Assembly: GCA_009914755.4 (NCBI GenBank)
Contig: CP086569.2
Coordinates: forward strand, 8,032,001 to 8,096,000
Direction of reading: 5' to 3'
DNA from: the human T2T-CHM13v2.0 reference genome, Homo sapiens
DNA: 64,000 nucleotides
Within the stretch, counting starts at the first letter, position 1; each line of letters begins with the position of its first letter. Below the pieces are notes generated by a model that had not been told where the DNA came from, searched no databases, and saw only the letters and a list, made by a program, of their open reading frames with translations. This document shows positions 11,996 to 64,000 of the stretch, one piece after another. The position numbers and the translations under genes are program-made.

Positions 11996-14900
11996 GAAAC
12001 TGGTATGTCACAATTTCTTAAGTGGGAAGGATCCAGACAGGAGAGTAGAGTCATATGTCACAATTTCTTAAATGGGCAGGATCCAGGGAGGAAACTAGAA
12101 TCATATAACCTAGATGCTATGTCTAGTGATTTGTAACAGTGTCAATTGCCAGCACGGAACTGGCAGGAGAGACATCTCACCTAGCCAGTAGACTCAGAGA
12201 TATGGGAAAATATACCCTGTTTGCAGGGCCCTGGCAGAAAGTTATCATCATTATCACATTATCGTGTGATAATGATATACCATCATTATACACCATCACA
12301 TTATGATGATTCTGACCCATAATGCCCTTAGGAAAAGGAATTCACTCCAAAAATTCTGAACACCAGGGTACTAGGCCAAGGGACATAACACAATCTCCTG
12401 ATCTTTAATGGTGATATCATTAGTGATCAGGTAGTTGTGTATAGGAGAGTCATAATCTCACATGTGTGCTGGCCATTATGTGACACTCTTTACAACACCT
12501 GAGAACTTTATAAAATATGGATAAGAGCTGCAAACCTCTCTGAGGCCTACATGCTTATATGGACTCATGATCTTGCATATTGCCCTAAACACAGAAATGA
12601 CAGTCAAAATTTCTCCCATAGGCTGGCCTCAGTGATGAGACAATTATCATGTCTGTGAGCTGGATCCAGAAATGAATCACCATGCCACATGTTGACAGAT
12701 TCACTTATGAAAGTCATAATTTCAACTTTGGGCTGTATTCATTTATCAGGACCTCAGCATTGGGCTTTGTAAATGTAGGATGGTAACAAATTTTACACTC
12801 ACCTGAGTGTGTAGTTGAGAGTCACAATCTTCACTTTTTGCTGGGCCCTGTTAAGAAACTCTCTGTACAGCCCAAGAGTTCTTGTGATATCAGTTAGTGT
12901 AGTAAAACTCTGTTAGATTTGTATGAATATGCAATGAAGGACCATCCATATTGACCTAAGCCTGGTGGTTAGAGTCAAAATATCTCCTACTGGCTGAATC
13001 CAAATATAAGCTTAAACATCATCACTTTGAACTGAAGCAATTTGTGGGCAAAAAACTAGGCAGAAGGTTAACATCACTTAGGGGCTAGGCCAAGCAATAT
13101 GTCACAATGCCTTTTCTAGGCAGGGCCTGGGAAAGAGGTGAAATTAACTGGGGGCTGGAGCCAGCAATGTGATACAACCACACAGGGAAGAAACACAATA
13201 AAGTGATGACAGCCAAAACACTTCTAGTATGGAAAAAAGATATGTCAAAGTAACATATGTGGTCCTGCAAAAGAGTCACATCATTAGCGTGCTGGGCCAA
13301 TCAATATGTTCCAATTCCCTCTTTATTCGTGACCTAGGGAGAAAAGTAACATCATCCAGGTACTGGGCCCCAAAATTCAGCAAAAATCCTGTTCATAGGC
13401 ATTGTTCAGCAAGAAGGCGGGAGTCACTTTACGTAAGTCCTGGGCTCATCAATATGTCACACTCTTCCCATTGTAAAGGCCCAGACAGAATAAGAGAGTC
13501 ACATCATGTTAGCCGTGGGCTCAGAGATATGGTTCAATGTCACCAGTCAGAAGGGCTCAGGCAGAAAAAGAGTCTTATCACCAATATGCTCTTTACATAT
13601 ATGTCACAATTTAATATGTGGGCAGAAACCAGGCTGAGGGGCCGCATCACCTGATCCTCAGTCCTGAGATATTCACAAGTCCCCTTAGAAAAAACCCCAG
13701 ACAAGAGACTTACATAACCTAGGTGCAGGTTCCACTCTTTTTGTCACAAAAATCCATGTGAGAAGGGCCAATCAGGAAGTCACCTCACCTAGGTAATAGG
13801 TTCAGAGATATGTCACAAAGCTTTCCTTAAAATATAGCCCTGGCAAAAAGAAGTTGCATCACCACTGTGCCTAGCCTGGCAATATGTCACAACTCAAGCG
13901 GGCAAGTCTCAAGAAGAACAAAATTATCTATATGATACACCCTGTGATGTGCCAAAATGCCCTCTTTTGGGTGTGACCCTGGCAAAAGAGTATCAACAAC
14001 TGTGTGTCTGGCCTTGGTATATGTCACTATTCTGCCCTGTGTGCAGGGCCCATTCTAGAGAGGAGAGTTTCTAAGTAATGGACACAGTGAAATGTCACTA
14101 TGATATCTGTGGATATGGCCCAGGCAAGAATGTAACATCACCTGTGTGCTGGATCCATTGATGTCACCATTATTACCGAGAGGAGGGCCCAGGTAGAAGA
14201 GTCACATCACTTCAAGGTTGGCCCATGTACTTATCAAAATCCCATAAGTAGGATCAAACCAATCTGAAGAGTGAAATCACACAGGTGCTTGACAAAGATT
14301 TATATCACAGTCAAAATGGAAGAAAATTATTGGGACTAGATCTACAATACAACACATATCGTGGTTTCATGTAGAACAGTTACCTTCATCCATGTGATAG
14401 TGAAACTCCTTACTGTCAGGTGGGTGTGCATGTCAGACTCACAATTTCCTCTGTGTGCTAGGCCCTACTATGACACTCTCTATACAACACAAGTTTGTTA
14501 TAAAATATATGTGAGCATTGTAATCTTCTGTGACCTTTTTATCAGAAGGAGATCCTGGATGGCACTCATGTTTCTAAACACAGCTATGAGTCAAAATTTC
14601 TCCTATTAGCTGGGTCCTCATATGAGAGTCATTTTCATGCCTGTTAGCTGTGCCTAGGTATATGTCATTATGTCACCATCCCCTCTGAAGTTATTAAACA
14701 GGTAGGATAGCCACATCACCTTAATATTTTCTTTGTAGGCAGGGACCTAACACAAAATCAGAACACTTGGGTGCTAGGCCCAACTGTATGGCATAATGCC
14801 TCTTATGGAGAGTGTCCATGCAGGAGAGAAGAATCATATTACCTCAATGATGGGCCCAGAAATATGTCACATGACTCATGTTGAAAGGGCCCAGGCAAGA

Positions 14901-16780
14901 GATTCATGTCTTTTGGATACAGTGCTTAAAATGCTACACTTCTCATTGGAAGTAGGGTTCAGGCAGTAGAGGAGACACATAACCTAGACAGTGCGTCTAG
15001 AGATATGTTATAATATTTTCTGCAAAAACTGTTAACACAGGAGAGTCAAATTAACGAGGTTCTTGGCACAGGTCTATGTCAAAATGTCATCTGTGGGCTA
15101 TAACTAGGCAGGATTATTAAATCACGCAGGAGCTGGGCAAAGGTACATGTTACAATAACACCTGTGGAAAGGTTCAGTGATGAGAGTCACCATCCTGCAC
15201 ATGTCCTGGATCCAGGTACAAGAGTCATTATTAGGCCTTTGTTGTGGTCTCAGGTATATGGCTCAATATCACCTGTGGGCAGGGAGAAGAAAGGAAAGTC
15301 ACATCGCTTGAATGGGTGTTGGTCTAGTGAAATGTCACCAGCCTCCTTGTGGGCAGGACCCTGGAAGAAGAGTCACATCATGTGGATTCTGGTAGCAGTG
15401 ATATATCTGAATCCACACTGTGGGTAGTGCTTAGGAAGGAGAGGAGACGAACTTCACATAGACTATTAGTCTTCATATGTGTAAAATGGCACCTATGTGC
15501 AGGACAAAGGCAGGAGAGTGACCTCATCTTGGTGCTGAGTTCAGCAATATGTCACAATGTCTCTGGTGGTCAGAGCCCAGACAAGAGAAAAGAAACATCA
15601 CCTAGGTGCTGAGCCAAGTGATATGTTACAATGCTTTCTATTGGCAGAACACTCCTCCCCCCAAAAAAAGAGTCACATCATCTGGGTACAGGACGCTGTA
15701 TTGTCACAATGCGCTATAAGGGCAGAAGCAAGGCAGTAGAAGAAAGTCACATCATTTTACACGATGGACCTAGATAAAAGCCACGATGCTCTTTTTAGGC
15801 AGGGTTCAGGCCAAGATTTTACATTAGCTGGTTGTTGGTACCAGTGATATGTAGAAGTGCCCTTTGTTGCATTGACAAAGAAGGTGCTATATAATGCTTA
15901 GGTGCTTGGTGCATGTATGTCACAGTTTGAACTGTGCTATGGGCCTAGAAAACAGGGTGAAAACCTTCAGAGGCAGGTCAAAGTCATACTTCTCAATCAT
16001 ACACTTGAAAATGTTCAGAAATAAGTTTGACAGTCCCACAAAAGTCCTGGCTTCAGGCATGTGAATGAACACCTCCTATAAGTTGGGTTCAAGTACTACA
16101 GGAGTCACTATCTCAACAATGGGTAAGATCCATATATAAGAGCCCCAATCCCACTTAAAGATTGTGGTCCAGTAGGAGAGTCAAAACACTGCAAGTCTGC
16201 TGAATCATAATTCAAAAGCCACCAAGCCACCTGTGGGTCATATTCATGTATGAATGTAACAATTTCAAGCTTCTACTGTGTACGTGTGTGAGATTTAGTA
16301 CCCTATTCCTAGGCTTTGCTCATGTATGAGAGTGACAATCGTGTCAGCTGTGTGTGGATCCAAGAGCCACAATAGCACCTAGGTGTCGGTGCCTGTTATG
16401 ACACTATTTGTGTCACTCAGGTTTTATATGATATGCCTGAGTAAGTAGCATACTTCCCTCTGAATTCTTACAGGTAGAACATCTAGAACTTTACCCATGG
16501 CCATAAGACTGGCTATGAGAGTTGATATATTTCCCCTGGTGGGGTCTAGGTATGAGACATATTATTGTGCATATGAGCTAAATCCAGGTTTATGTCACAA
16601 TCTCACTTTTGGATAGAAATATGACAGAAGAGTCACATCATCTGGGTAATGAGCCAGGGAAACATTTTAACCTCCTTTGTAGGCAGGAGCCATGCAGAAG
16701 AGTCATAGAGCATGGATAAAGTCTCCAACAATATGTCATCATGCCCACTGTATACAGGGCTGAGAAAAAAGCGGATACTC

Positions 16781-17080
16781 GGCTGGGCATGTGGCTCATG
16801 CCTGTAATCTCAGCACTTTGGGAGGCTAAGTTGATTTGATCACCTGAGTTCAGGAGTTCAAGACCAACCTGACCAAGATGGTGAAACACCGTCTGTACTA
16901 AAAATATATAAAAAAATAGCTGGGTGAGGTGGCAAGTGCCTGTAATCCTACCTACTTGGGAGGCAGAGGCAGGAGAATCGCTTGAAACTAGAAGGCGAGG
17001 TTGCAAAGAGCTGAGATTGTGCCCTTGCACTGCAGTGTGGGTGATAACAGCAAAACTCCATTTCAAGGGAAAAAAAAATA
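16781..17080 (+). mobile_element. Full-length Alu (AluS-like) inserted in the array, followed by a short (TA)n/'gtggatatatata' microsatellite.
   Basis: 'ggctgggcatgtggctcatgcctgtaatctcagcactttgggaggctaag...gagattgtgcccttgcactgcagtgtgggtgataacagcaaaactccatttcaagggaaaaaaaaa'. Left and right monomers and a poly-A are present. Confidence 0.85.
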
Positions 17081-31852: not shown

Positions 31853-35712
<3,860 letters not shown>

Positions 35713-44779: not shown

Positions 44780-47440
44780 GCCTAGATAAAACATCTATAG
44801 AACAGGTGTGAGAGACTTCAAGAATCTCTAGCCTAAAAGTTGGTATCATATTCCCCCAGAAAAAAGTCAATAAGCATTTTCACATGTGGCATTTTATTAT
44901 ATAATTTGCAACCCAAGATTACAACATATACAAAACATTAAGATAAGATGGCTCACTCTAAGATAAAAATAAATATGTAGAAATCAATGATAATAAATGG
45001 AGATGTAAAAATTACCTGAGAAAATTTCAATTAAAGTCTACATCTATTTTTAAAAGAAAAAAATAAATTACCCTAACAAATTAAAATTGCCACCTGAATG
45101 ATGCTTAATGAGTAAAACTGAAATAAAGAAAACAAACTGAAATAACAAATACGAAATTAACAAAATTATAAAAAGAACAAAAAATAAAATTTATGTAGTA
45201 GAAGTACAAAAAAGACTAATATGAACTTCAACATTATTAAAAAAAATAAGAAAATCAGGAAGCTCAGTAAATTTCAACCAACATTAACACAAAGAAATTT
45301 CTAACAAGACCCCAAATAAGAAATGCTTTGAAAGTCATATATAAGAAGAGAATCTTGAATGCAGGAAGAAAAAAAGAGATATGTTATTTATATGCATGCT
45401 TCTGCAAGTTTACCAGTAAGTTTATAAACATAAATCTTTCAGGAAGAAAGGAGTAGGATAACATACTTAAAACACTGAAGAAAAACTTCTGTTAGAAATG
45501 CCTATTCCTCAGTGCCAAAAAGTAGAACTAGCACTCAGACAAAGAATTTTCTCAGCAAGGCAATTTTGCTTTCTGTAGAAAGCTTGCTGCTCATCAGCAA
45601 TCCTGCCATGAAAGCACAATGAAACAGAAAGGCAGGAATATTTATCCTGTATGCGTTGGGTTCTTATTTCTGTTTCCTATCTCCATTAGTTTGAGCAGGA
45701 CATCACAGTCTAAGCTAAACCTGATTAGCTAACAACCTAAAACATTCCTAAATAGGTAAAGGCAATGAAGAACAAAGAAAAGGAGAAAGTTGCTTTTGAA
45801 AAGTCTTAGAGAAGTAATAACATTTCCAAATAAGAAAAGGGCATAAGCTGCAAACTGGGACATGCTTGAGCATGTACAGAACAAATCTCTTGTTGAAAGT
45901 CCAAGGGCATGGAATGTACTTATTCTTTATATATAACAGCTACATAGAATAGGGCTTAACAGAGAGTCAATAGCACAAAACAGGAAGGCTTTGAAGAAAT
46001 TTAATTTGTAAAAGAAAATATTATTTCTAACATTTATTATTTAAAAGAAGGAAAATTTTGATGAGAAACTTTTTACTTTTTACAAAGTCTAAGTAAGAAT
46101 ACTATATCCAGCAAAAGTATCCTTCAAAATGAAGGAGAAAATATCCAACTATATCATGATCTATATCAAGATCTAACCATGTCATCTCTTCAAGAGTCTC
46201 ACTTCAGACTTAATAAAAAAATAGACTGAAAATGGCAGGATAAAAAATACATGCCATGGAAGTGTTAACCAAATAAGAGGAGAAGAGGCAACAATTTATT
46301 AAATTGAAAACAGTCATATTTTGTAAAATTTGCTCTAAGTGAAAATTCACAAGAGACAAGTAGGACATTCAGTTATACTAAGAAAGTTCATTTACTGAGA
46401 TTCTATAAATATATGAGAGTTTTCCCAAAAACGTAAAATAAAACATTGACATAATTGAAGCAAAAATAGAAAACAATATAATAATGGAAGGATACATTTA
46501 TATCCCACTTTCAGTAATAAATAAAGCAAGACGGAATATCAATAAGGGAACACAAAGCTTGAATTCTCTATACAATATTTGTACCCGACAAATGTGTACA
46601 ACAATAGAATACATACTTTTTAATAGCTCATAGAATATTTTCCTAGATGGATTGTGTGTGACTCCATGAAAGAAGCATTAATGATTTTTAATTGAAATTT
46701 TACAGACAATTATTTATAGCCCAAATGGAATGAAACTAGAAATCAGTAATGGAAGAAAAGCTGAAAAAAAATTATAACAAATAACAACACAGTTTTTCTT
46801 TTTTCTTTTTTCTTAGATGCAATATCACTCTGTCACTAGGATGAAGTGCAGGGGCACAATCTCAGCTCACCGCAACCTCCACTTCCAGGTTCAGGCAATT
46901 CCCCTGCCTCAGCCTCTCCAGTAGCTGGAACTACAGGCACACACCACCATGCCCAGCTAATTGTGTGTATTTCAATAGCGGCAGGATTTCATCATGTTGG
47001 CCGATATGATCTCAATCTCCTGATCTGGCCATGGACCTTCCTTGGCCTTACAAAGTGATGGGATTACACGTATGAGTCACCAGGCCTGGCCAGTAAAGTT
47101 TTTTGAGCATACTCATTATCAAGGGTTGGAAGACATAATATTCTAAAAATGTCCATGCTGCTTAAAGTGATCCACACATTCAACAGGCCAATTTTCAATT
47201 TTAAATTAAAGTTTCCCAAAAATATAAATTAAAATAACCCAGAAAATTACATGAAAATCCTGGCAATCTTTAAAAGGAAGCCAAATATTGGAAGCATTAC
47301 ACTTAACAATTTCCAAACACAAAACAAACCTAAAGTAATCAAAACACTTGGTACCAGTACAAAGGTAGAACACGAAAGTAATGAAGCAGAATGCAGCACA
47401 GAAATAAACATTTGAATAGAGAGGAGAGACATACCACCTA
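44780..47440 (+). mobile_element. Old L1 (L1M-like), sense strand, covering the ORF1 C-terminus through mid ORF2. It has a ~1.3-kb internal deletion at the site of an antisense Alu and is truncated at the array boundary.
   Basis: 46100 'ccagcaaaagtatccttcaaaatgaaggagaaaata' matches the ORF1 end. 46700 'ccaaatggaatgaaactagaaatcagtaatggaagaaaagctg' matches the ORF2 EN end. 47360 'cttggtaccagtacaaaggtagaacacgaaagtaatgaagcagaatgcagcacagaaataaacatttg' matches the ORF2 '...[23 protein letters not shown]' region. The 5' boundary (44780) is uncertain. Confidence 0.55.
46795..47092 (-). mobile_element. Full-length Alu in antisense orientation, nested in the old L1.
   Basis: 'ttttttcttagatgcaatatcactctgtcactaggatgaagtgcaggggcacaatctcagctcaccgcaacctccacttccaggttcaggcaattcccctgcctcagcctctccagtagctggaactacaggcacacaccaccatgcccagctaattgtgtgtatttcaatagcggcaggatttcatcatgttggcc...caggcctggcc'. 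Confidence 0.85.
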
Positions 47441-48749
47441 GGTTTTTCATTCAGCTGTATTTCACAATTCCTTTGGTAAGCAGGACCCAGGCAGGAGAGG
47501 AGAGTTATACCATTTAAACACTAATTTATGCGATATTTCAAAATTTTTTTCTGGAGGCAGAGAGGCCTGGAGGGACATGTAACCTAGCTGATAGAAGAAG
47601 AGATATGTGATAATATACCCTATTGACAGGACTCATGCAGAAGTATCACATTATTGTGATTCTGAGCCAGCATTACGTAAAAATGCTCCCGTGGAAAGGA
47701 ATTTGAGCCAAAAGACTCAACCTGGGTACTAGGCCCAGAAATATGACACAATCTCATCATCTTTGTAGGTGACAACGTTAACTTTTAGCTAAGTGTGTAT
47801 ATTAGAGTGACAATCTCACATGTTTGCTGCGACAATGTATGACCCTCTGCAACATCCAAGGGACTTATAAAACGTGCATAAGAGTTGCAAAGCTCTCTGA
47901 AGCCTACGTGCTGGTATGGACTCACAATCTTACGTATTATCTTAAACCCAGGTTTGATAGTTGACATCTCTCCTATAGGCAGGGTTAAGGAAAAAGACCC
48001 ATTATTATTTCTGTGGGCTGGGTTTAGAAATGACTGACCATCCCACTTGTGGCCAGAGCCACATATAAATTTCACAATTCCAACTTTGTGCTGTATTCCT
48101 GTGTTAGACTCTTGATCTTAACAGTGGGCATTGTAAATGTGGGATGGTGACAACTTTTAATTTCACCTGGGTTTGTAACCTAGAGCCCCAATCTGAAATT
48201 TTGGCCAGGCCCTGTTATGAAATTTTATAGCACCAAAGAGTTTATATGATATAAGTTAGTATTGTAAGCTTCTGTGAGGTTGTTACATACATGTAACCCA
48301 GGAGATTATCTATTCCTCCAAGCCTAACAATGAAAGGCAAAATATCTTCTATTGCCTGAATCCCAATATAAGTGTGAACATCATGTCTGTGAACTGAAGC
48401 AAGGTATAGGTCATAATCCCATATGCTGGCAAAAACTAGGCAGGAGGGTAACATCACTTAGATGCTGTGCCAGGCAATATGTTACATGCCTTCCTTAGGC
48501 AGGGCATAGGAAATTTGGTCATATTAGCTGGGTGCTGGACCTAGCAATATGACACCATCTCACATGTGGAAAAAACCCAGTCAAGTTATGGGAGCCAAAA
48601 CACCTACATAAAGAGACCAAGATATGTCAAAATACCTTCAGTGGCTCCAGCACAGGAGGACAGTCACATAAAAATGGTCCTGGACTGAGCAATATACAAT
48701 ATGCCATAAGTTCTTCTATATGCAGAAACAAAGCAGAAGAGTAACATCA

Positions 48750-49879
<1,130 letters not shown>

Positions 49880-51069
49880 AAAAATGAGGAGATTCACATA
49901 TCCTGAGTGCTGGGCTCAGTAATGTGCCAAAATCCTCCTATTGTGAATGCCCAGGCAGAAAAACAGAATCACATCACTTAGGTCATGAGCTCAGACATTT
50001 GTCCCAATGTCCCCAGTAGGCAGGGTTCAGGCACACAAGGAGGGTCATATCACCTGTGTGCTTCCCTAGAAATATGTCATAATGTAAAATGTGGGCAGAA
50101 ATTAGGCAGAAGAGCCACATCGCCAGAATGATGGGTTCTGAGATATTTCACAAGGCTCTCTTAGGACAGCACCCAGCAAAGATAGTTACATCACCTAGGT
50201 GCAGGTTCTCTGTTTATGCTACAATTCTCCATGTGGCCTCCATGTGCATAGGACCCAAGGAGGGAGTCACTTCACCTAGGGGATAGGCCCAGAGATATGT
50301 CGCAATGACCTCTATGAAGCATAGCCCTAGCAAAAGAGTACTATCACCTGTGTGCCTGGCCTAAAATATGTCACTGTCAAGGTTGGCAGGGCCCAAGCAG
50401 GAAAGCCACATAACCTAGGTGATAAACCCAGAGATATGTCACAATGCCCTTTTGTGGGCATGGCTCTGGCAAAATAGTACCTTCCCCAGTGTACCTGGTC
50501 TTGCAGTGTGTCACTGTCATTCCTTTTTGCAGGGCTCATTCCAGAGAAGAGAGTTACATAACTTATGAGGTGGACACAGAAATATGTTGCAATAAGTTTG
50601 GTGTGCCTGGCACAGGAAAGAATGTAACATCACCTTGGTGTTAGATCCAGTGATATGTCACAATCTTTACTGAAAGAAGTGCCCAGGCAGCAGAGTCACA
50701 TCACCTGTAGGTTGGCCTACATAGATATGATAATCCCATATATACACTGGAAAAAGCCTGGAGAGTCAAATTAAACAGGTGCTTGGCAAAGATTTATATT
50801 ACAATCACATTGTCAGAAAATTCCAAGGGTGAGATTTACAATGCCACACATGTCCTGTTTTCATATATGACAGTTGGTTTTATCCATATGAGATGATGAT
50901 AGTTCTTACTGTCAGCTGGTTGTGCATACCAGATTCACAATTTCTACTGTGTCCTGAGCCGTGTTTTGACTCTGTCTGTATAACCTAAAGACTTTATAAA
51001 ATATGTGTGCTTGTTGTAATTTTTTGTAAACTTTGTACAAGAAAGAGATTCAGGACATTTGGGATCCCT

Positions 51070-52826
51070 AAAATTAGTTATTAAACTAGGAAAAGATGAA
51101 TTTAAATTGTCTCTGTTTGGAGTTGACACGATTGTATATCTATAAAATCCCATCGTCTGAGCCTAAAATCTCCTTACACTGATAAGCAACTTTAGCAAAG
51201 TCTCAGGATAATAAATCAATGTGCACTCCCATTCACAATTGCTAAAAAGAGAATAAAATACCTAAAAATACAACTTACAAGGGATGTGAAAAATCTCTTT
51301 AGGGTGAACTACAAACCACTGCTCAAGGAAATAAGAGAGAACACAAACAAATGAAAAAACATTCCATGCTCATTGATAGGAATAATTAATATCATGAAAA
51401 TGACCATAACTCCCAAAGTCATTTGTAGAATCAATGCTATCCCCATCAGGCTACCAATAACTTTCTTCACAGAATTGGAAAAAAAAAACTACTTTAAACT
51501 TCATGTGGAACCTAAAAAGAGCCTGAATATCCAAGACAATCTTAAGCAAAAAGAACAAAGAAGGACTCATCACACGACTTGACTTCAAACTATAATACAA
51601 GGCTACAGAAACTAAAACAGCATGGTCCTGGTACCAAAACAGATATATAGATGAATGGAACAGAATAGAGGTCTCAGAAATAACACCACTCATCTACAAC
51701 CATCTGATGTTTGACAGACGTGATGCAAACAAGCAATGGGGAAAAGATTTCCTATTTAATAAATGGTATCTTGAAAACTAGCTAGCCATAGGCAGAAAAA
51801 ATGAAAATGGACCCTTTCCTTGCACCTTGTACAAAAATAAACTGAAGATGGATTAAAAACTTAAACATAAAACCTAAAATTATAAAAATTATAGAAGAAA
51901 ACCTAGGCAATACCATTCAGGACATAGGCATGGGCAAATACTTCATATTTAAACACCAAAAGAAATGGCAACAAATGACATAATTGATAAATGGGATATA
52001 ATTAAACAAAGAAGTTTCTGCACAGCAAAATAAACTATCATCAGAATGAACAGGCAACCTCCAAAATGGGAGAAAATTTTTGCAATCTATCCATCTGACA
52101 AAGGGGTGATATCTAGAATCTACAAAGAACTGAAACACATTTACAAGAAAAAAAAAAAAAAAAACCTATGAAAAGTGCTCATTATCACCAGTAACTAGAG
52201 AAATGCAAATCAAAGCCACAAAGAGATACCATCTCACGCCAGTTAGAATGGCAATAATTAAAAAGTCAGGAAACAATAGACGCTGGAGAGGATGTGAAGA
52301 AACAGGAAAGCTTTTACACTGTTGGGGGGGAGTGTAAATTAGTTCAACCATGTAGAAGACAGTGTGGTGATTCCTCAAGGATCTAGAACTAGAAATACCA
52401 TTTGACTCAGCAATTCCACTACTGGGTGTATACCCAAAGGATTATAAATCATGCTACTATAGAGACACATGTGCACGTATGTTTGTGGCACATATACACC
52501 ATGAAATATTATTCAGCCATAAAAAATGATGAGTTCATATCCTTTGCAGGGACATGGATGAAGCTGAATACCATCTTTCTCAGCAAACTATTACAAGAAC
52601 AGAATAGGAAACACCGCAAGTTATCACTCATAGGTGGGAATTGAACAAAGAGAACACATGGACACAGCGAGGGTAATATCACACAACAGGGCTTGTCAGG
52701 GGGTAGGCGTCTAGGGAAGAGATAGCAGATGCTGGTTTGATTTGTGCAGCAAACCACAATGGCACCTGTATAACTATGTAAAAATACTGCAAGTTATGCA
52801 GAACTTAAAGTAAAATAAAAAAATAA
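51070..52826 (+). mobile_element. Older L1 (L1PA/L1PB-like) 3' portion in sense orientation, covering the ORF2 RT end through the 3'UTR, with internal deletions. No TSD is recognisable.
   Basis: 'gtctctgtttggagttgacacgattgtatatctataaaatcccatcgtctgagcctaaaatctccttacactgataagcaactttagcaaagtctcaggat' is ORF2. '...ggtgggaattgaacaaagagaacacatggacacagcgagggtaatatcacacaacagggcttgtcaggggg...aaagtaaaataaaaaaataaaa' is the 3' end. A ~90-bp deletion relative to the L1 consensus is visible at 'gtttgtggcac|atatacaccatg'. Confidence 0.8.
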
Positions 52827-55800
52827 AACCCAGGCAGAATGTTAACATCACTTAGGTGGTGTATCACACAATATGTCACTATGCCCTCTTTAGGCAGGAC
52901 CTAGGATAAAGGGTCACATTAACTGGGGACTGGAACCAGCAATGTGATACAACCACACATGGAAGAAATCCAGCAAAGTGTTGAGAGCCAAAAGAGCTAC
53001 AGAAAGGGTCAAGGTTATGTGAAAATTCCTTCCATGGCTCTGGCACAGAAAAGAGAGTCACATCATTAGAGTGCTGGGCCAAGCAATCTGCTATAATTCT
53101 TTTCTTATTAATACCCTGGGCATAAGAGTGACATCCTCCACATGCTGGGCCCTGAAATATGGCAAAAGTCCTGTTTATGAGTGTTGTTCATCAACAAGAC
53201 GAGTCACGTTAGTTAAGTGCTAGGCTCACCAATCCGTCAAAATCTTCCCATTTTAAAGCCACATACAGAAGAAAGAGAGAAACGTTGCTTAGATCATAGG
53301 ATCAGAGATATGGCCCAATGTCACTTGTAGGCTGGGCCCAGGAAGAAAAAGAGAGTCATATCACCTAGGTGTTTCTTTAGGTAAATGTCACAATTTAATA
53401 TGTGGGCAGAAACCAGGCTAAAGATCCACATCAACTCATCCTGGGTCCTGAGATTTTCACAAGCCCCCCTTAGAAAAGTACCTATGCAAGAAAGTTACAT
53501 CATGTAGGTGCAGGTTCCACCCTTATGTGACAATGCTCCATGTATGCAGGCAAAGCAGGAAGTTAAATCACCTAGGTGACATGCCCAGAGATATTTCACA
53601 AAGCTTTCTTAAAGCATGGCCCTGGCAAAAAGTACCATCACCTTTTTGCCTGGCCTAGCAATATGCTACTATTCAAGTGCGCAGGTCCCAAGCAGAGGAA
53701 CCATATCACCTACATTATAGGCCCTGTGATATGTCAAAATGCCATCTTTTGGGCATGGCCCTGGAAAAAAACTATCATCACCTCTGTGTCTGGTCTAGGA
53801 ATATATCACTATCCTGCCCTGTGTGCAGGGCACATTCAAAAGAGGAGAGAATTTTCTTCAAAGCAATAGGCACAGAGATTATGTCACAATAATGTGACAT
53901 CACCTGGGTGTGGGTTCAGTGATATCACAATGTTACTGAGAGCAGGGCCCAGGTAGAAGAGTCACATCACTTCAAGGTTGGCTCAGGTAGATATCAAAAT
54001 TCCATATGTAGGCTGGAAACAGTCTGAAGAGTGAAATCGCACAGGTGGTCTGCAAAAATTGATGTCAGAGTAATGGTGGAATTAAATTCTAGGGATGAGA
54101 TATACAATACCACACATGTCCTGTTTTCACATAGGAGAATTGCCTTCATCCGTCTGTTATAATGAAAGTCCTTACTGTCAACTGGGTGTGCATATGAGAC
54201 TCACAATTTTCTCTGTGTGCTAGGAGCTGTTATCACACTCTTTATACAAACCAAGGGTGTGATAATATGTGTGGGTGTTGTCATGATATGTGACCTTCTT
54301 ACCAGAAGGTGATCCTGGACAACCGTCATGTCTCTAACATAGTTATAAGAGTCAAAATTTCTTCTACTGATTCAGTTCACATATTAGAGTCATTATCATG
54401 CCTGCTAGCTGTGCCTAGGTATACATCACTATCCCCTCTGTGGTTATTGAACAAGAAGGACAACCATATCACCTAAATCCTGAGCAAGAAATATTCCAAT
54501 ATTGTCTTTGAAGGCAAGACCCTAACAGAAAATTCACAAAACTTGGGTGCTAGGCAAAGCTGTATGGCAATATGGCCCTTGAAGAAGAAGTCCAGGCAGG
54601 AGAGGATAGTTATATAACCTAAATGATGGACCCAGACATATGTCACAATGATTCATGTTGAAAGCCCCAGGTCAGAGAGTCATGACATTTGGATGCAGTG
54701 CCTAGAAATGCTACAATATTCACTGGAAGCAGGGTTCAGGCAGGACAGAAGAGTCACATAACCTAGATGATGGGTACAGAGATATATTACCATCCCTTCT
54801 GAGGTCACTTTTAGACAGGACAATCCAATCACCAAGGTTCTTGACCAGGAATATGTCAAAATGTAATCAGTGGGCTATAAGTAGGCAGGGTTATTAAATC
54901 ACATAGGAGCTGGACAAAGGTATATGTCACAAAAACAACTGAGGAAAGATTCAGAAATGAGAGTCACCACCCTGCACATGTCCTGGCTCCAGGTACAAGA
55001 GTCATTATTAGGGCTTTTGTCTGGTCTCAGGTATATGGCACAATATCACATGTGGCAGGGAGAAGAAAGGAAAGTCACCTCATCTTTGTGGGTGCTGGTC
55101 CAGTGAAATGTCATAATCCTACTTGTGAGCAGGACTCTGGAAGAAGAGTCACATCACCTGGATGCTGGTTTCAGTGGTATATGTAAATCCCCCTCGTGGG
55201 AAAGTCTTCGGAAGAACAGTAGACAAACATCACCTTGGAAATTGGCATGAATATATGACACAATGGCTGCTATGTCAAGAACAAAGGCTGAATAGTCACC
55301 TAATCCTGGTGCTGGGTTCAGCAATACATCAGAATCTCTTTGGTGGTCATGGCCCAGGCAAGACAGAAGAAACTTTACCTAGGTGCTAAGCCATGGGATA
55401 TGTGAAAAACCTTCCTATTGGCAGAGGTACTAGGCCTAGTGATATGACACAATATCTTCATATCTTAGGGTGACACCTTTGACTGTCAGCTTGGTGTACA
55501 TATAAGTGTTGCAATGTCATGTGTGTCCCGTGTCATCATATGACACACTTTACAACATCCGAAGGCTTTATGCAATATGTATGAGAGTTGCAATCTACTC
55601 TGAGGCTGACATGCTCATATTAACTCATGATCTTACATATTGCTATAAACCCAGTTATGATAGTCCACATCGCTCTTATAGGCTGGGTTGAGACAGGAGA
55701 TCGGTTATTATGCCCTTCATCTGGGTCCAGAAATGAGTCACCATCTCACCTGCAATAAGATACACATATGAAAGTCACTATTCCATCTTTTTACTTTATT

Positions 55801-58800
55801 TGCATTTTAAGCTCAGGACTTCAAAAATGGGCTTTGTAAATGTGAGATGGTGACAACATTTGCTCTCACCTGCAAGAGTAATCAAAAGTCACGATTGTAA
55901 CCATTTGCTGGGCCCTTTTATAAAGCTCTGTGTACCACCCAAAGATTTTATACAATATGAGTTAGTGTTTTAAACTTCTGTTAGCTGTGCTCAAATTTGC
56001 AACTCATAACTTTACATATTACCAAAAGTGTAGTGATGAGAGGCAAAATATCTGCTATTTGTGGAATTCCAACTTCCAATTGATAATCATACCTCTGAAT
56101 TGAAGCAATGTAAATTTCATAATCCCATTTGTTAAAAAAAATAGCAGGAGGTTAACACAACTTACATTCTGTGCCAAGCAATATGTCACAATGCCTTCCC
56201 AACACAGGGTCTGGAATGCTGGTTACGATAACTGGGTGCTGAACCCAGCAATATGACACAATCCCAAACATGGATAAAACACCCCAGACAAGTGAAGAGC
56301 GCCAAATCACCTAAATAATAGGCCCAAGATATGTAAAAATACTTTCTGTTGCTCTGGAAGAGGCAGGAGAGTTACATCATCAGGGTGTGGGTCCCAGCAA
56401 TATCCCATAATTCTATCTTTATGCAGGACCGTGTCAGAAATGGAAAATCATCGTAGTGCTGGGCCCAGCAATACATCAAAATTCCTTTTTATGGCCATGG
56501 TTCTGGAAAAAAAAAAGGAGTCATATTACCTAATTATTGTGCTTAGCAATATGTCACATCAACCCATAAAAAAAAGACAGAAGTAAAAAAGACATTACTT
56601 AAGACACAGGCTCAGATATATGATCCAATGTCCCAAGTAGTTAAGACTCAGGTATAAGAGAACAGTCATATTATGCAGGTGCTTCCCTAGGTTTATAACA
56701 TAATCTAACACATTAGGTGAAGCCAGGCAGAAGAGTCACATCACCTTGATACTTGGTCTGGTGATATGTCACAAGGCTCCCTTTAAGACAGGACTCTGGC
56801 TAGAGAGTTACAACAAATGAGTGCAGGTTCTACCCTTATGTTACAATGTTCTATGTGGTCAGGGCCCAAGCAGGGAGTCACATCATCTGGCTGATAAGTG
56901 CAGAGATATGTCACAATGTTCTCCTGGAATTATGGCCCTAGTGAAAGAGCACCATCACCTTTGTGACTAGCCAAGCAATACGTCACTATTCAGGTAAGCA
57001 GGACCCAAACGGGAGAGCCAAGACACCTAGTTGATAGGCCCAGAGGCTTGTCAAATGTCCTCTTTAGGACAGGGCCCTAGAAAAAGGGTACTGTTACCTC
57101 TTTGCCTGACCCAGCCATATGTTGCTATCCCCCACTGTGTGCAGGGCCCATTTTAATGAGTAGAGTGGTTGACTCAGTGATATGTCCCAGGGATTTCTGT
57201 GCACATGACTCAAGCAAAAATGTGACATGACTTGAGTGCTGGATCTAGTAATATGTCACAATTCTTACTGAGAGCAGAGCCCAGGCAAAAGCATCACATC
57301 ACCTAACGGTTGGCCCAGGTAGGTATCACAATAACTTTGTGGGCTGAAACAATCTTGAAGAGTCAAATCACACAGGTCCTTAGCCAGCAAAGATTTATAT
57401 CACAGACACACTGGCAGAAAATTATCAGGATGAGATTTAAAATATCACACATGTTCTATTTTCATGAATGACATTTCTCTTCATATATGTGAGATGGTGA
57501 CTCCATACTGTCAGCTGGGAGTGCATATAAGACTCACAGTTTCACCTTTCTACTGGGTTCTGTTATTACATTCTCTGTACAGGCCAAGGGCTTTATAAAA
57601 TATCCAAGGCTGTTAAAATCATCTTTTCACAAGAAAGTCATTTATTCACTCCTGTTTCTGAAGCAGGTTATAAAACTTAAAATTACACCAATTTCTGGGG
57701 TCCACATAGGAGAGTCATAATCATGCCTGTGAGTTGTGCCTAGATATACGTAACAATTTACTCTGTGGTAATGAAATAGCCATAACAGCAAAGTACCCCC
57801 CCAAAGGCTGAGCAAGAAGTGTTCCAATATTCTCCTTGTTGGTAAGTTTCTGTCAGCATAGTTTGATAACATGGGGGTTACAACCAGATGTATGGCACAA
57901 TGTGCCTTGTGGGCAGTGTCCAGACAGAAGAAGAGACTCCTATCACTGAAATGCTAGGCCTAGAGGTATGTCACAATGTCGCATGTCGAAAGGACCAGGC
58001 AAGAGATTCAGATCACTTGGATGCAGTGCCTAGAAATGGTACTATCCCCAGTGAAGCAGGGTCCAGCAAGAAGAGGAGAGTTGGATAACTAGATGATGGG
58101 TCCAAAGCCATGTCACAATCCTTCCTGGGGATGTTGTAAAAACAGGAGAATCAAGTCACCAAGGCACTCAGCCAAGGTATATATCAAAATCTAATTTGTG
58201 GGTTACACCTAGGCAGCATTAGTAGGTCACTCAAGAAATGGGAAATGGTATATGCCACAATGACACAAGTGGAAAGTTCCAACAATAGGAGTCACCTTCT
58301 TGCATATGACCTGGCTTAAGGTTTAAGAGTCATGATTAGTCCTCTTATTTGGTCTCAAGTATGTGGCATGATATTATCTATGGGCAGAGAGCAAATAGAA
58401 ATATCACATTATCTGGGTGGGTGCTGGTCCAGTGAGATGTCACAATCTTTCTTGTGTCCAGGACCATAGAAGAAGAGTCACATTACCTGGATGCTAGTTT
58501 TAGTGAGATATCAAAATTCCTTTTGTGGACAGCCCTTAAGAAGTTGATGAGACTCATTTTACCTAGGCAATAGGCCTAGATATATGTCACAATGGCCACT
58601 ATTTGCAAAACCAAGGTATGAAAGTGACCTCACTTTGGCTCTTGGTTTAGTAATATGTCACAATCTCCCCTCCTGTCAGGGTGAGACAAGAGAGGAGAAA
58701 CATGACATATGTGCTAAACCAAGTGATATTTTACAAAGCTTCCCATTGGTGGAACCCAAAATGGAGAGTCACATCACCTGGGTGCAGTACCCAGTTATGT

Positions 58801-61800
58801 ATCACAATGCACCATAAGTGCAGGGCAAATGAAGTAGAAGTCACATCGCTTACATGATAGACCTAGATATAAGCTACAATGCCTTTTATAGGCAGAGATA
58901 AGGCAAATAATTTACCTCGGCTGGGTGCTGGTCCCAGTGATATGTAAAAGTCCAATTTGTAGGCAGGTCCAGGCACCTTTGCTTAGGTTTATGTTCCATG
59001 TATGTCACAATTTCATCCATCATCATGGTTTAAATAATGAGAGTCAATTATTCAGGAGTGGGGCTAACTTTTATGTCCTAATCACACAACAGGAAATATT
59101 CAGAAATGTTTTTCATAGTCCCACACAAGTCTTGGCTTTGTATATGGGAGTCAACACCTCCTGTGATTTGGGTCAAAACAGAGGAGTCACAATCTGAACA
59201 ATGCACAAGATCCATGTATAAGATGCCAATTCCACTTGAAGATTGTGTTCCAGGAAGAGAGTCACAGCTTCACAGGTCTGCTGATTCATGCATCACCAAA
59301 GAACCCATTGGTCAGATTCGTGTATGAAAGAAAAAAATTCAAATTTTGACTGCTTTTTTTTTTAGTGAGATTTAGCACCTTATTTGTAGGCCCTATGCTT
59401 TGAGAGAATGACAATCACGTCAGCTGGGTGTGCATCCAAGAGTGAAAATAACATTTGGTTGCTGTTCTCTGTTATAACATTCTTTGTACCACTCACACTT
59501 TACATGATATGCTTGAGTGTCATAATCCTCTGTGAAATGTATACAATTAGGAGACCGATTACTTTACTTATGGCCATAAGGCTGCTATGAGAATCAAAAT
59601 ATCTCTCCTTTCTGGGTCTAGGTATGGTAGTTATATTTCTTCATGGTAGCTCAACCCAGGTATGTGTGCCAATTTCAACTGTGGGAAGAAACATGGTAGG
59701 AGAGTCTCACAACATGGATGCCTAGCTCAGGATACATTATAATCTCCTTTGCAAGCCATGCCAAGTCAGAAGACTCACGTCACCTGGGTACAGCCTCAAG
59801 TAATATGGTCTCGTGTCCGCTGTAGACAGGATTGAAGAAAAATAGGATAATCACACCACCTAGGTGCTGGGATTAGCAATATGTAATAATTGCTTGTTTT
59901 GGCCAGCTCCAGAATACAGAGAATAGTTGCATGCAATTGTATGTCACAATTTCTTTAATAGGTAAGACCTAGGCAGGAGAGAAGAGTCACATTTCCTAAA
60001 TGTTACCCCTGGAGGATGTCACAATGTTCCTTGGGGGCAAAGCAGAGGCAAAATAGAAAAATCAACTAGCAGATGGGTTCAGAGATATGTATTATCCATA
60101 CTTGGCAGGACCCCAGCAGAAAAGTCACATTATTATGATTCTGCCCCAATGATATGTCACAATGCACACAAGGGAAACAATTTAAACAAAAGTTTTAACA
60201 ACTGGGTACTAGGCTCAGTGATTAGACAAAATCTCCTCATATTTTAGGGTGACACCTTCAACAGTTATCTTGGTGTGTATATGAGTCACATTGTCAAGTG
60301 TGTGCTGCATCATTGTATGACACCCTCTACAACATCTGAGGGCTTTATACAGCAAGCATGAAAGTTGCAAACTACTCTGAGGCCCACATGCTCACATGGA
60401 CTCTCGATCTTATATATTGCCTTAAACTTGGGTGTGATAGTCAACATCTCTCATTTAGGCTGAGTTCAGGAGTGAGACTTATTTTTATGCCTCTGAATTG
60501 GCTCTAAAAATGAGACGCAATCACCCCTGTGGCCAGATCCACAAATTATAGTCACAATTCCAACTTTGAACTGTTTTTACTTGTTGGACTCAATACCTCA
60601 ACAATGGGCTTTGTAAATGTGGGATGGTGATAACCTTTACTTTCACCTGGGAGCTTAATTGAGAGTCACAATCCTAACTTTTTTTCTAGGCCTTGTTATG
60701 AATCTCTCTGTACCACCAAAGGAGTTTATACAATATTAATTAGTGTTGTAAATTTCTCTGAGTTTTGTACAAATATGCAAACCAGGATTTTACCTATTGC
60801 CCTAAGTCTAGTGATGAGAGGCAAAATATCTTCTATTGGTTGAATCCCAATATAAGTTTGAACATCATGCCTGTGAAGTGAAGCAAAGTATATGTCATAA
60901 TCTTATTTGTGGACAAAAAGGAAAAAGAATAACATCACTTTGGTTATGTGGTGAGCAACTTGTCACCATGCCTTCTCTAAGAAGGATATAGGAAGGAGGG
61001 TCCTATTATCTGGGAGCTGGACACAACAATATTACACAGTACTTCTTGTGAGAAAGATTAGCCAAAGGATGAAAGGTAAAACACCCTCAGAATAAGAAGA
61101 CATGTCAAAATTCTCTCTGTAGCTCTGGCACCAGAAGGACAGTAGCATCATCAGGGCGCTAGTCCCACCACTATGAAAAAATTGCCTCTTTATTCAGAAA
61201 TGCAGCAGAAGAGTAATATGAACTGAGTACAATAGATCAAAATTGCTCTTTGTGTGCATGGTTCAGAATAAAGAGTAGAGTCACATGACCTAAATGCTGG
61301 TCTCAGAAATATGTCCACAATCTCATCACTTTGAAGGGTGAAGCAGGGGAGGAGAATAATATCACTTAGGTCAGAGGCTCAGAGATAGATCCAAATGTCC
61401 TCAGTAGGCAGAACTCAGAAAGAAAAGGACAGTAGTATTTCCTATGTGCTTCTTTATGTATAAGTCAGAATCTAACACATGGGCAGAAACCTGGCAGAAG
61501 AGCCACTAAATTACCTGGGTTCTGGGTCCTTAGATATGTCACAAATCCCCCTTAGAATAGAAACAAGGTGAAACAGTTACATTGCCTTGGTGCCGGTTTC
61601 ACTTTCATGTCACAATGTTCTCTGTGGTTGAGGCCAAAATATTGAGTCATATCAACTAGGTGATAGAGCCAGATATATGTCACAATGTCCTCTATGAAGC
61701 ATAGCCCTGGGTAAAGAGTACCATCACCTGTGTGCCTCGCCTAGAAATATGTCACTCTCCAGGTTGGCAGGGACCAAGTAGATGAGCCGCATAACCCAGG

Positions 61801-64000
61801 AGAGAGTACCAGAGATATGTCACCAAGTAGAAGAGCCGCATAACCTAGGTGAGAGTACCAGAGATATGTCACAATGTCCTCTTTAGGGGATAGTTCTGGC
61901 AAAAAGTACCATCACCTGTGTGTCTGGCTTTGCAAAGTTACTATCCTTCCTTTGTGCAAGGCCTATCCAGAGAAGAGAGTTACATCACCCATGTGGTGGA
62001 CACAAAAATATGTCACAATAATTTTTGTGGGTGTGGCTCAAGCAAGATTGTAGAATCACGTGGATGCTAGATCCAGTGATATATCAAAACACTTACTGAA
62101 AGAAGGGCCCAGGCAGTAGAGTCACATCACCTTGAGGTTGGCCTAGGTAGGTATCACAATCCCAGATGTTGGCCTGAAGAAGTCTAGAGAGTCAAATTAA
62201 TACAGATGCCTGGCAAATAATTATATCACTATCTCACTGTCAGAAAATTCCAAAGATAAAGTTGGCAATAACACACAAGTCCTGTTTTCCTGTGTGACAG
62301 TTGACTTCATTCATGTGAGATAATGACAGTTCTTACTGTCAGGTGCATGTGCATAGAAGATTCAAACTCTCACCATGTGTTGAGCCCTGCTTTTACTCTG
62401 TCTCTATAACCCAAAGACTTTGTAAAACATATTTGAGCATTGTAATCTTTTGTGATGTTTGTATACGAAAGTTATCCAGGACATCACCCATGTCACTAAA
62501 TTGAGTTATAACAGTCAAAATATGCTCTATTTGCTGAGTCTACATATGACAGTCATTATCATTCCTGTGAGCTTTGCCTAGGTATATGTTAAAATTCCCT
62601 CTGTAGTTATGGGGCAGGCAGAACAGCAATGTCGCTGAAATGTTGGGCCAGAAATATTCCAGTATTCTCTTTGCACGAAGTCTCCTGTCTGAAATACCAC
62701 ATACCTTGTGTGCTAAATCCAGCACAGATTCCATTGTGGTCAGTGTCTAGACATGAGAGGAGAGTCATATCACCTAAAATCTGAACCCAAAAATGTCGAA
62801 ATCCCTCCTGTTGAGAGGGTCCAGAAAAGAGTGTCATGTCATTTGGATGCAATGTTTAGAAATGCTACAATTACTAAAGGAAGGTGGGTACAGGCCAAAG
62901 AGGAGAGTCATGTACCCTAAATAATAGCTTCAAAAATATGTATGTGACTATTACCCTGAAAACATCATCAAGGTAGCACAGTCAAATCACCAAGCTGCTT
63001 GACCCAGGTATTTGTCAAAATCTCATTTGTGGGCTATACCTAGGCAGAATTATTAAATTTCTCAGGTATTGGACAACGATGTATATACAATTACACTTGT
63101 GGAAAGGTTTAAAAATAAGAATCACCATCCTATACATGTCCTGTATCTAGACATAAGAGTTGTTATATGGCAGAATATCTCCTGTTGTCAGAGAGAAGGC
63201 AAAAAAGTCACATCATCTACGTGGGTGCAAGTCCAGTGAGATATGACAATCCACCTGGTGGGCAAGACCCTGGGAGAAGAGTCAGATCACCTGGAAGCTC
63301 CTTTCAGTGACATATGAAAAACTGCTTGGTGAGGGTTTTAGACTCAGAACTTCAACAGCGGCCTTTGTAAACATGGGATGGTGGCAACTTCTAATTTCAC
63401 CTGGGTGTGTAATAGAGAGTCCCAATCTGAACTGTTTGCTGGTCAACATTATGAAAATTTCTACCACAAAAGAGTTTATTCAGTACAATTTAGTGGTGTA
63501 AACTTCTATGAGCTTGGTACAAACATGCAACCCATGACCTTACCTATTGCCACAAGCCTAACAATGAAAGGCAAAATATTGTCTATTGGCTGAATCCCAA
63601 TATAAGTTTGATCATCATGACTGTGAACTGAATCAGGGTATATATTATAGTTACATATGTATGCAAAACACTAGGTAGGAGTGTAACATCATTTTGATGC
63701 TGTGCCAGAAAATATGTCACAATGCCTTCTCTGGGCAGGGTACAGAAAATTGATTCATATTAACTGCATGCTACAATATGATACAATCCCACACATGGGA
63801 AAAACCCAGTCAAGTTATGAGAGCCAAAATATATGTATAATATGCCTAATATACTCAACATACCTTGAGTAGCTCCAGCACAAGCAGGAAACTCACATAA
63901 GGGTGCTGGGACCAGCAATATGCAATGTATAAAATTAGCTGTTTATGCAGATTCCAGGTAGATAATTAACATCATCTGGGTGCTGGGCAATGCAATAAGT

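What the first reader, a model, noticed from the sequence alone, without database searches (positions are those of the whole stretch)
51070..52826. Second L1 joins non-adjacent phases of the repeat unit: insertion-associated deletion (~3.4 kb) or a recombination scar, with no TSD
Upstream, the array stops in the middle of an X anchor ('...ctttgtacaagaaagagattcaggacatttgggatccctaaa', equivalent to ~7550 of block 1). Downstream of the L1 poly-A it resumes at the position just after a Z anchor ('cccaggcagaatgttaacatcacttaggtggtg...', equivalent to ~13060 of block 1). In the canonical order X->Y->Z this skips the rest of X plus whole Y and Z blocks, about 3.4 kb. No TSD is recognisable. This matches L1 integration with a target-site deletion, or an L1 captured at a pre-existing deletion or recombination junction.
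Basis: partly seen in the sequence, partly recalled or inferred. Interest (0 to 1): 0.5.

Follow-up and report, generated by a model that had tools for sequence, protein, structure and literature searches.

The report
Old L1 on a satellite-array deletion junction
An ancient, 5'-truncated L1 retrotransposon sits exactly where a diverged primate tandem-repeat array skips about 3.25 kb (at least 1.5 kb) and has no target-site duplication, which is an ordinary example of L1-associated deletion, a phenomenon known since 2002.

Summary
A plus-strand L1 fragment (ORF2 residues ~687-1275, 3'UTR, short A-tail) occupies 51079/51082-52828. The left flank ends at phase ~1553 of the first third ('A') of a 4.87-kb repeat unit. 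The right flank restarts at phase 0 of the next unit's A segment. No other unit joins these phases. No TSD exists: the best shared word is 5 nt, reached by 492 of 500 shuffles. Two other L1s in the arrays keep perfect 20- and 21-bp TSDs.

Unit trees show a four-unit higher-order repeat (alpha-beta-delta-gamma). The flanks are delta and gamma, which are neighbours, so one partial unit is missing. That is about 3.25 kb if delta was canonical, and at least ~1.5 kb.

The 3' junction lies in an A-run native to every unit boundary, which suits L1 endonuclease. The 5' junction has 3-bp microhomology. The lost side reconstructs as TTAT/AA.

Best reading, at about 50%: ordinary TPRT with an upstream top-strand break, i.e. 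an L1 insertion-mediated deletion. Main rival, about 35%: a later non-homologous deletion that clipped the L1 5' end. The arrays carry five other such junctions.

The event is ancient (~15% L1 decay), so it is not polymorphic. It is a known phenomenon of low interest.

The parts
49900..51081 (+). Upstream flank: the delta-type 'A' segment (copy A6) of the 4.87-kb unit, running from unit phase ~350 to ~1553. It is the continuation of 48435-48805, which is separated from it by a younger L1.
   Evidence: Best paralogues are 6389-7547 (78%) and 61823-62484 (78.6%). Alignment to eight paralogues runs to AGTTAT at 51076-51081. The C-end plus A-start of this copy groups with A3 and A10 in 289 of 300 bootstraps.
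51079..51081 (+). 5' junction microhomology TAT, shared by the array (AGTTAT) and the L1 (GGTATT).
   Evidence: Four-way alignment of the junction, another L1 of the window, and two array paralogues. Blastn homology to the other L1 starts at 51079.
51082..52816 (+). Body of the 5'-truncated L1 (L1#2). The ORF2 remnant runs from codon ~687 to the stop at 52642-52644, followed by the 3'UTR to 52816. It has internal deletions totalling ~260 bp and many stop codons.
   Evidence: phmmer versus PDB: LINE-1 ORF2p 8sxt_A, E=7.8e-151, residues 688-1275. It is 82-85% identical to the minus-strand L1 at 31895-33880. Branch length is 0.14-0.16 and uniform along the element; the internal gaps are listed.
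52817..52828 (+). Short A-tail (AAAAAAATAAAA). The last ~4 A's (52825-52828) cannot be told apart from the array's own A-run, which is the presumed first-strand target (a T-run on the bottom strand).
   Evidence: Sequence. All other unit boundaries read ..GGGCAAAAA|ACTAGGCAGG...
52829..54450 (+). Downstream flank: the gamma-type 'A' segment (copy A7), starting at unit phase 0. It is followed by a partial B segment to 55425.
   Evidence: Best paralogue is 13051-15648 (77%). A4 and A7 are sisters in 294-300 of 300 bootstraps, and A6+A7 are sisters in 0 of 300.

Best explanation
An old primate L1 (ORF2 codon ~687 to the 3' end) integrated by ordinary endonuclease-dependent target-primed reverse transcription. 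The bottom strand was nicked in the T-run opposite the A-run that every repeat unit carries at its C/A boundary, and the L1 poly(A) primed there. This step is inferred from the intact 3' end, the A-tail abutting that A-run, and the paralogous units.

The top strand was then joined at a break upstream rather than 7-20 bp downstream. That break lay at unit phase ~1553 of the preceding (delta) unit, at a site that reconstructs as TTAT/AA. The exposed ...AGTTAT 3' end paired with the end of the cDNA through TAT. The DNA between the two breaks was lost, so no target-site duplication formed. The lost DNA was the rest of A, then B and C of the delta unit: about 3.25 kb if that unit was canonical, and at least ~1.5 kb.

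Shown here: L1 identity, both junction positions, absence of a TSD, the phase jump, and the adjacency of the two flanks in the higher-order repeat. Inferred: that deletion and insertion were a single event.
For: L1 identity and extent.

No TSD for L1#2, while two control L1s in the same arrays keep perfect 20- and 21-bp TSDs.

Phase jump, with no unit spanning the junction.

The flanks are delta and gamma units, consecutive in an alpha-beta-delta-gamma higher-order repeat seen in both arrays (bootstraps 289-300 of 300). Exactly one partial unit is therefore missing.

The 3' junction lies in a conserved A-run.

The 5' junction has 3-bp microhomology.

The left breakpoint reconstructs from paralogues A7, A8 and A9 as TTAT/AA, one mismatch from the L1 EN consensus. 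Only 0.7% of array positions, and 2.6% of 4-position windows, hold such a site.

Literature: an upstream top-strand nick gives a target-site deletion (PMC2881922). L1 insertion-mediated deletions are either <100 bp or >1 kb (PMC3362811, citing Han 2005). 5'-truncated insertions are enriched for target-site deletions and for junction microhomology (PMC11702581).
Against: A single sequence cannot show that loss and insertion were simultaneous.

The arrays hold five other out-of-phase junctions that are also out of monomer register and have no L1. Non-homologous kb-scale deletions are therefore frequent here and could have clipped the L1 later.

The L1 itself has six internal deletions of 11-77 bp, so the locus has lost DNA since insertion.

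Large insertion-mediated deletions are rare per insertion (order 1% or less; my recollection of Han 2005, which is not held in the library).

The TTAT/AA argument is post hoc. It rests on paralogues, because the AA is deleted in this copy.

Three-bp microhomology is not significant on its own.
Confidence: 0.5

Rival explanations
1. Two-step history. The L1 inserted normally, with a TSD and a longer 5' end, at the same A-run. Later an unrelated non-homologous (NHEJ/MMEJ) deletion removed the array segment, the upstream TSD copy and the L1 5' portion, leaving a TAT microhomology junction.
For: There are five other out-of-phase junctions in ~38 kb of array, none associated with an L1. Four of them were also measured as out of monomer register: three and 55425/55426 by eye; 63320/63335 could not be phased. 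All five arose after the higher-order duplication, because the paralogous units are intact. The L1 has been resident about as long (branch 0.14-0.16, against 0.12-0.14 per lineage for the paralogues). The L1 also carries six internal deletions. Every sequence feature (no TSD, truncation, microhomology) is equally expected under this history.
Against: It needs two events where one suffices. It needs a deletion of at least 3.3 kb plus the lost L1 part, which is larger than four of the five background deletions (1.3-3.1 kb). It does not predict an EN-like TTAT/AA at the left breakpoint (2.6% by chance).
Confidence: 0.35
2. L1 recombination-associated deletion. Two same-orientation L1s, one at A phase ~1553 and one at the C/A boundary, recombined. 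This left a single chimeric L1 whose two flanks carry unrelated TSD halves.
For: It would explain the absence of a TSD together with an intact 3' end. AAAATTAGTTAT, preceded by T, lies just upstream of the 5' junction and could be read as the start of a TSD at an EN-like site. 73 such deletions are reported for the human lineage (PMC3362811, citing Han 2008).
Against: Only one old L1 exists in ~38 kb of array, so a second in the same orientation within ~3 kb is unlikely a priori. Divergence is uniform along the element (0.144 versus 0.156 for the two halves; sliding identity 78-87% over all but the last window, 73% in the 3'UTR, with no step). The paralogues read TAAAC/TAAAT/TAAAG at that spot rather than a good EN site.
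Confidence: 0.06
3. Endonuclease-independent capture of L1 cDNA or RNA at a double-strand break, or an L1 landing in a junction that already existed.
For: There is no TSD, sequence is lost, and microhomology is present.
Against: Three of the four criteria for non-classical insertion fail (PMC1920257). The 3' end is complete, an A-tail is present, and the target is an A/T-run. A normal insertion into a pre-existing junction would have produced a TSD. It would also need a hit on one particular base pair in ~40 kb.
Confidence: 0.05
4. Artefact: the flanks are actually contiguous, or the junction is an assembly mis-join through L1 sequence.
For: None was found. Independent copies of the junctions could not be retrieved.
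Against: The flanks map to phases ~1553 and 0 in every paralogue. The L1 is colinear and is 15-18% diverged from the other L1 copies compared (74-89% identity to the L1 copies in the window), so there is nothing for an assembler to collapse it onto.
Confidence: 0.02

Closest known systems
L1 insertion-mediated deletions (Gilbert et al. 2002; Symer et al. 2002 in cell culture; Han et al. 2005 in human and chimpanzee genomes)
   Same: A 5'-truncated L1 with an intact 3' end and A-tail at an EN-type site. No TSD. Kb-scale loss strictly upstream of the L1 5' end. Microhomology at the 5' junction. The size falls in the reported '>1 kb' class.
   Different: The published cases were proven with an empty-site allele or an outgroup. 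Here the pre-insertion state is inferred only from paralogous repeat units. The event is far older (~15% decay), and simultaneity is unproven.
Post-insertion truncation of old L1 copies by ordinary genomic deletion
   Same: An old L1 lacking a TSD and its 5' part, in a locus with several other non-homologous deletions.
   Different: The left breakpoint reconstructs as an EN-like TTAT/AA, and one event would suffice under the insertion-mediated model.
Non-classical (endonuclease-independent) L1 insertion, NCLI (Sen et al. 2007, PMC1920257)
   Same: No TSD, associated deletion, junction microhomology.
   Different: NCLI elements are 3'-truncated, lack poly(A) and sit at non-EN sites. This L1 has a full 3' end and an A-tail, and sits at an A/T-run.
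L1 recombination-associated deletion (Han et al. 2008)
   Same: A single L1 flanked by non-matching sequence, with the intervening DNA lost.
   Different: There is no sign of a chimeric element and no second old L1 nearby.

Membership tests
LINE-1 (primate L1) copy inserted by TPRT | Sequence homology to L1 ORF2 and the 3'UTR | tested here: met
   ORF2p residues 688-1275, E=7.8e-151. 82-89% DNA identity to the best-matching segments of two other L1s in the window.
LINE-1 (primate L1) copy inserted by TPRT | Intact 3' end followed by an A-rich tail | tested here: met
   ...AACTTAAAGTAAAAT followed by a 12-nt A-tail at 52817-52828. The same 3' end is seen in L1#1.
LINE-1 (primate L1) copy inserted by TPRT | Target resembling 5'-TTTT/A-3' on the primed strand | tested here: met
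   The paralogous unit boundaries all carry A4-A8 on the top strand exactly at the junction. The exact nick position is not recoverable.
LINE-1 (primate L1) copy inserted by TPRT | Target-site duplication of 7-20 bp | tested here: not met
   The best shared word is 5 nt, reached by 492 of 500 shuffles. The controls have 20- and 21-bp TSDs.
L1 insertion-mediated deletion | The pre-insertion allele contains sequence that the L1 replaces exactly | tested here: inconclusive
   No orthologue or empty allele is available. As a proxy, paralogous units hold 3.24-3.25 kb between the two breakpoint equivalents, and the flanks are consecutive delta and gamma units. The delta unit lacks B in both arrays, so the loss could be as small as ~1.5 kb.
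L1 insertion-mediated deletion | Deletion and insertion are one event, with no intermediate carrying L1 plus TSD | not testable with these tools
   This needs orthologous primate loci. The collections searched hold no copy of either junction.
Non-classical, endonuclease-independent L1 insertion (criteria of PMC1920257) | 3' truncation, no poly(A), a non-EN target, and no TSD | tested here: not met
   Only 'no TSD' holds. The 3' end is complete, an A-tail is present, and the target is an A/T-run.
L1 recombination-associated deletion | A chimeric L1 derived from two parental elements | tested here: inconclusive
   Divergence is uniform along the element and it is colinear. This is a weak test, because no subfamily consensus library was available.

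The most novel reading that the evidence does not exclude
This is a genuine, very old L1 insertion-mediated deletion in which both strand breaks fall at endonuclease-like sites ~3.25 kb apart in a tandem array. The array's higher-order periodicity acts as an internal ruler, which allows an ancient event of this kind to be recognised and sized without an outgroup. It would be a modest methodological point, not a new mechanism.
Probability: 0.45. Interest if true: 0.2.

Novelty: already known. Interest (0 to 1): 0.12.

Why it matters
It matters little beyond annotation. L1-associated target-site deletions have been documented since 2002. This is one more likely instance, in non-coding satellite-like DNA. 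The one mildly useful point is methodological. In a tandem array with a resolvable higher-order repeat, paralogous units can stand in for the missing empty site. Old L1-linked deletions that are invisible to human-chimpanzee comparisons can then be detected and sized.

Tried and rejected
Pfam scan of two frame translations with stop codons replaced by X: no hits. The PDB sequence search with a stitched translation replaced it.

TRF on 47-64 kb: it found only two short arrays, because the 71-bp monomers are too diverged. Autocorrelation and an iterated nhmmer profile were used instead.

Exact-match scans for both junctions in metagenome contigs (two scans) and in prokaryote genome contigs (one scan), hoping for contaminating primate reads as an independent copy: 0 hits.

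Rfam scan of 47-57 kb: nothing.

Full-text search for monomer words, to name the satellite: only unrelated primer hits.

Search for 'promiscuous TPRT': swamped by the gene PTPRT.

Han et al. 2005 is not held in the library. Its numbers are quoted second-hand or from memory, and are marked as such.

Rejected readings:
- The flanks are contiguous.
- A6 and A7 are a local tandem duplication. They are sisters in 0 of 300 bootstraps.
- The other array junctions are monomer-register homologous exchanges. The four that could be phased are out of register: three, and 55425/55426 by my reading after mis-scored it. 63320/63335 could not be phased.

Full report
**What the window is.** The window is primate DNA. 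It contains Alu elements and L1s whose ORF2 matches human ORF2p. Two blocks of one diverged tandem array, 1-21800 and 47414-64000, flank a 25.6-kb AT-rich, L1-bearing spacer.

The array is hierarchical:
- The monomer is 71 bp. Autocorrelation peaks at 70-71 and ~147. An iterated profile finds 406 of its 408 hits inside the arrays, with consensus GTCACAATGTCCTCTGTGGGCAGGGCCCAGGCAGGAGAGTCACATCACCTAGGTGCTGGGCCCAGAAATAT.
- The unit is ~4.87 kb. I divided it into A (ref 1353-3054), B (3054-4824) and C (4824-6220).
- Four unit types recur in the order alpha-beta-delta-gamma. The left block reads A1(alpha) A2(beta) A3(delta) A4(gamma) A5(alpha). The right block reads A6(delta) A7(gamma) A8(alpha) A9(beta) A10(delta). 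Bootstrap support is 289-300 of 300 for the groups on the informative alignments.
- Same-type units are 75-79% identical. Different types are 65-73% identical.

**Checking the observation.** The interval is an L1. A stitched translation matches LINE-1 ORF2p residues 688-1275 at E=7.8e-151. The DNA is colinear with a minus-strand L1 at 31895-33880. It ends in the L1 3' terminus plus a 12-nt A-tail.

- Array homology runs on to AGTTAT at 51076-51081, with 14 of 17 positions matching unit A9 over 51065-51081.
- L1 homology begins at 51079, so the junction is 51079-51082 and TAT is shared.
- The A-tail ends at 52828. Every other unit boundary reads ...GGGCAAAAA|ACTAGGCAGG..., so the last few A's may be target DNA.

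Position 51081 is equivalent to 7572, 62509, 2908, 14587, 54346 and 57671, which is A phase ~1553. Position 52829 is equivalent to 13055, 48435, 11140, 63670, 18204, ~56141, ~60919 and 6152, which is A phase 0. A pseudo empty site built from the two flanks gives no alignment across the junction anywhere in the window.

There is no TSD. The best shared word is TAAAA, which 492 of 500 shuffles reach. The same test recovers a perfect 20-bp TSD for the neighbouring L1#1 and a perfect 21-bp TSD for the minus-strand L1 fragment at 11696-11998. Those two controls are younger. Even so, the flanks here keep 77-79% identity to their paralogues, so a 15-bp TSD should still be visible.

**How much is missing.** In intact units the interval from the left-breakpoint equivalent to the next A start is:
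- 3.24-3.25 kb in each of the two alpha units (2908 to 6152; 57671 to 60919);
- 3.57 kb in the beta unit, which includes a ~300-bp Alu;
- 3.62 kb in the gamma unit, which also includes a ~300-bp Alu.

A6 is delta and A7 is gamma, so they are consecutive in the higher-order repeat. A6 and A7 are never sisters (0 of 300 bootstraps).

One caveat applies. The only other delta unit in the window, A3, is itself truncated. It jumps from A phase ~250 to C phase ~140 at 11389/11401, so B of the delta unit is seen nowhere. Two independent deletions are the parsimonious reading. An ancestral delta unit without B would reduce the loss here to ~1.5 kb.

**Age.** In three-taxon comparisons with the two younger L1s, this element's branch is 0.144 in one half and 0.156 in the other. 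Sliding identity shows no step. The element has internal deletions of 65, 50, 18, 77, 21 and 11 bp.

Same-type array units differ by 21-25%, roughly 0.12-0.14 per lineage. The L1 therefore entered about when, or soon after, the higher-order copies separated. It is absent from the intact paralogous boundary at 13051-13055. The event is tens of millions of years old, so a haplotype comparison is unlikely to find an undeleted allele.

**Mechanism.** The 3' side has every mark of endonuclease-dependent TPRT: a complete 3' end, an A-tail, and a T-run on the primed strand. The standard model produces a target-site deletion when the top strand is broken upstream of the first nick (PMC2881922). 5'-truncated insertions are the class enriched for target-site deletions and for microhomology of 2 bp or more at the 5' junction (PMC11702581). 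Genomic L1 insertion-mediated deletions are reported as either <100 bp or >1 kb (PMC3362811, citing Han 2005).

All of this fits the locus. In addition, paralogues A7, A8 and A9 read TTAT/AA at the left breakpoint, one mismatch from TTTT/AA. Only 0.7% of array positions, and 2.6% of 4-position windows, have such a site. This hints that L1 endonuclease made the second cut. The test is post hoc and relies on paralogues.

**The main rival.** The arrays contain five other out-of-phase junctions: 1352/1353, 11389/11401, 21290, 55425/55426 and 63320/63335. None has an L1. Each is unique to one copy, so each arose after the higher-order duplication.

Four of the five are also out of monomer register:
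- Three show this.
- One search scored 55425/55426 as step 0, because the same profile hit was used for both sides. From the junction sequence I read about 27 bp of the monomer as skipped.
- 63320/63335 could not be phased.

The two TSD-corrected control L1 sites come out in register in the same test.

Kb-scale non-homologous deletions are therefore common in this array. One of them could have removed the upstream TSD, a longer L1 5' part and the array segment after a normal insertion. My rough priors are:
- roughly 1% for such a clipping event at generic indel rates, several-fold more at the rate seen in this array;
- 0.2-2% for an insertion-mediated deletion of 3 kb or more.

These are of the same order. 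They rest on my own recollection of rates, not on a tool result. The single-event economy and the EN-like left breakpoint tip me to insertion-mediated deletion at ~0.5, against ~0.35 for a later deletion.

**Minor rivals.**
- L1-L1 recombination is unlikely, at ~0.06. There is only one old L1 in 38 kb of array, and the element shows no chimeric step.
- Endonuclease-independent capture, or landing in a pre-existing junction, is unlikely, at ~0.05. Three of the four NCLI criteria of PMC1920257 fail, and a normal insertion into an old junction would have made a TSD.
- A mis-assembly is implausible. The element is 15-18% diverged from the other L1 copies compared and is colinear.

**Comparison with what is known, and verdict.** This is an L1 sitting on a deletion junction. 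It is most likely an L1 insertion-mediated deletion of the kind described by Gilbert et al. 2002, Symer et al. 2002 and Han et al. 2005. Membership in that class cannot be proven without an orthologous empty site. Nothing in it departs from known L1 biology.

Novelty: already known. Interest: about 0.12.

Noticed in passing
window 1-21800 and 47414-64000: The array is hierarchical. A 71-bp monomer builds a ~4.87-kb unit, and units form a ~19.5-kb four-unit higher-order repeat (alpha-beta-delta-gamma) that is in the same order in both blocks. Same-type units are only 75-79% identical, so the array is ancient. From memory, the monomer resembles beta (Sau3A, 68-bp) satellite. This was not tested, because no repeat library was available.
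   Followed up: partly
window 48806-49899: A younger plus-strand L1 (L1#1) shows a twin-priming 5' inversion: an antisense segment at ~48826-49170 and a sense segment at 49171-~49730. About 130 bp of non-L1 sequence, ending in a second A-run, lies between its poly(A) and the downstream TSD; this looks like a 3' transduction. It has a perfect 20-bp TSD, AAAAATGAGGAGATTCACAT (48806-48825 and 49880-49899).
   Followed up: partly
window 11675-12019: A minus-strand fragment of an L1 3' end (~300 bp) with a perfect 21-bp TSD, ACTGGTATGTCACAATTTCTT. It is 90% identical to L1#1, so it is young.
   Followed up: yes
window 1352/1353, 11389/11401, 21290/21291, 55425/55426, 63320/63335: Five further junctions where the array jumps phase, with about 1.3-3.1 kb missing relative to paralogous units. 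None has a transposon, and each is unique to one copy. Four are measured as out of 71-bp register; 63320/63335 could not be phased. At 21290 an alpha-type piece from the A-end/B-start region follows an alpha B segment, which could reflect a much larger loss.
   Followed up: partly
window 11140-13050 and 48435-52828: The delta unit is truncated in both blocks by different events, and its B segment is absent from both. Either there were two independent deletions, or the ancestral delta unit never had a B. The next delta unit starts at 63670 and runs off the window.
   Followed up: no
window ~9519-9806 and ~16781-17078: Two plus-strand Alu elements lie at different phases of the C segment in two different units, so they are independent insertions. 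They account for the 3.57- and 3.62-kb unit intervals.
   Followed up: yes
window 61773-61872: A recent-looking 49-bp tandem duplication (2 copies, 94% match) inside array copy A9.
   Followed up: no
window 21800-47414: A 25.6-kb AT-rich spacer separates the two array blocks. It contains a minus-strand L1 (at least 31895-33880), several Alu-like copies, and a GC-richer stretch around 40-42 kb (GC 0.47). The left block ends in an A-type piece at 21800, and the right block starts in mid-C at 47414. Whether the spacer was inserted into one array was not examined.
   Followed up: no
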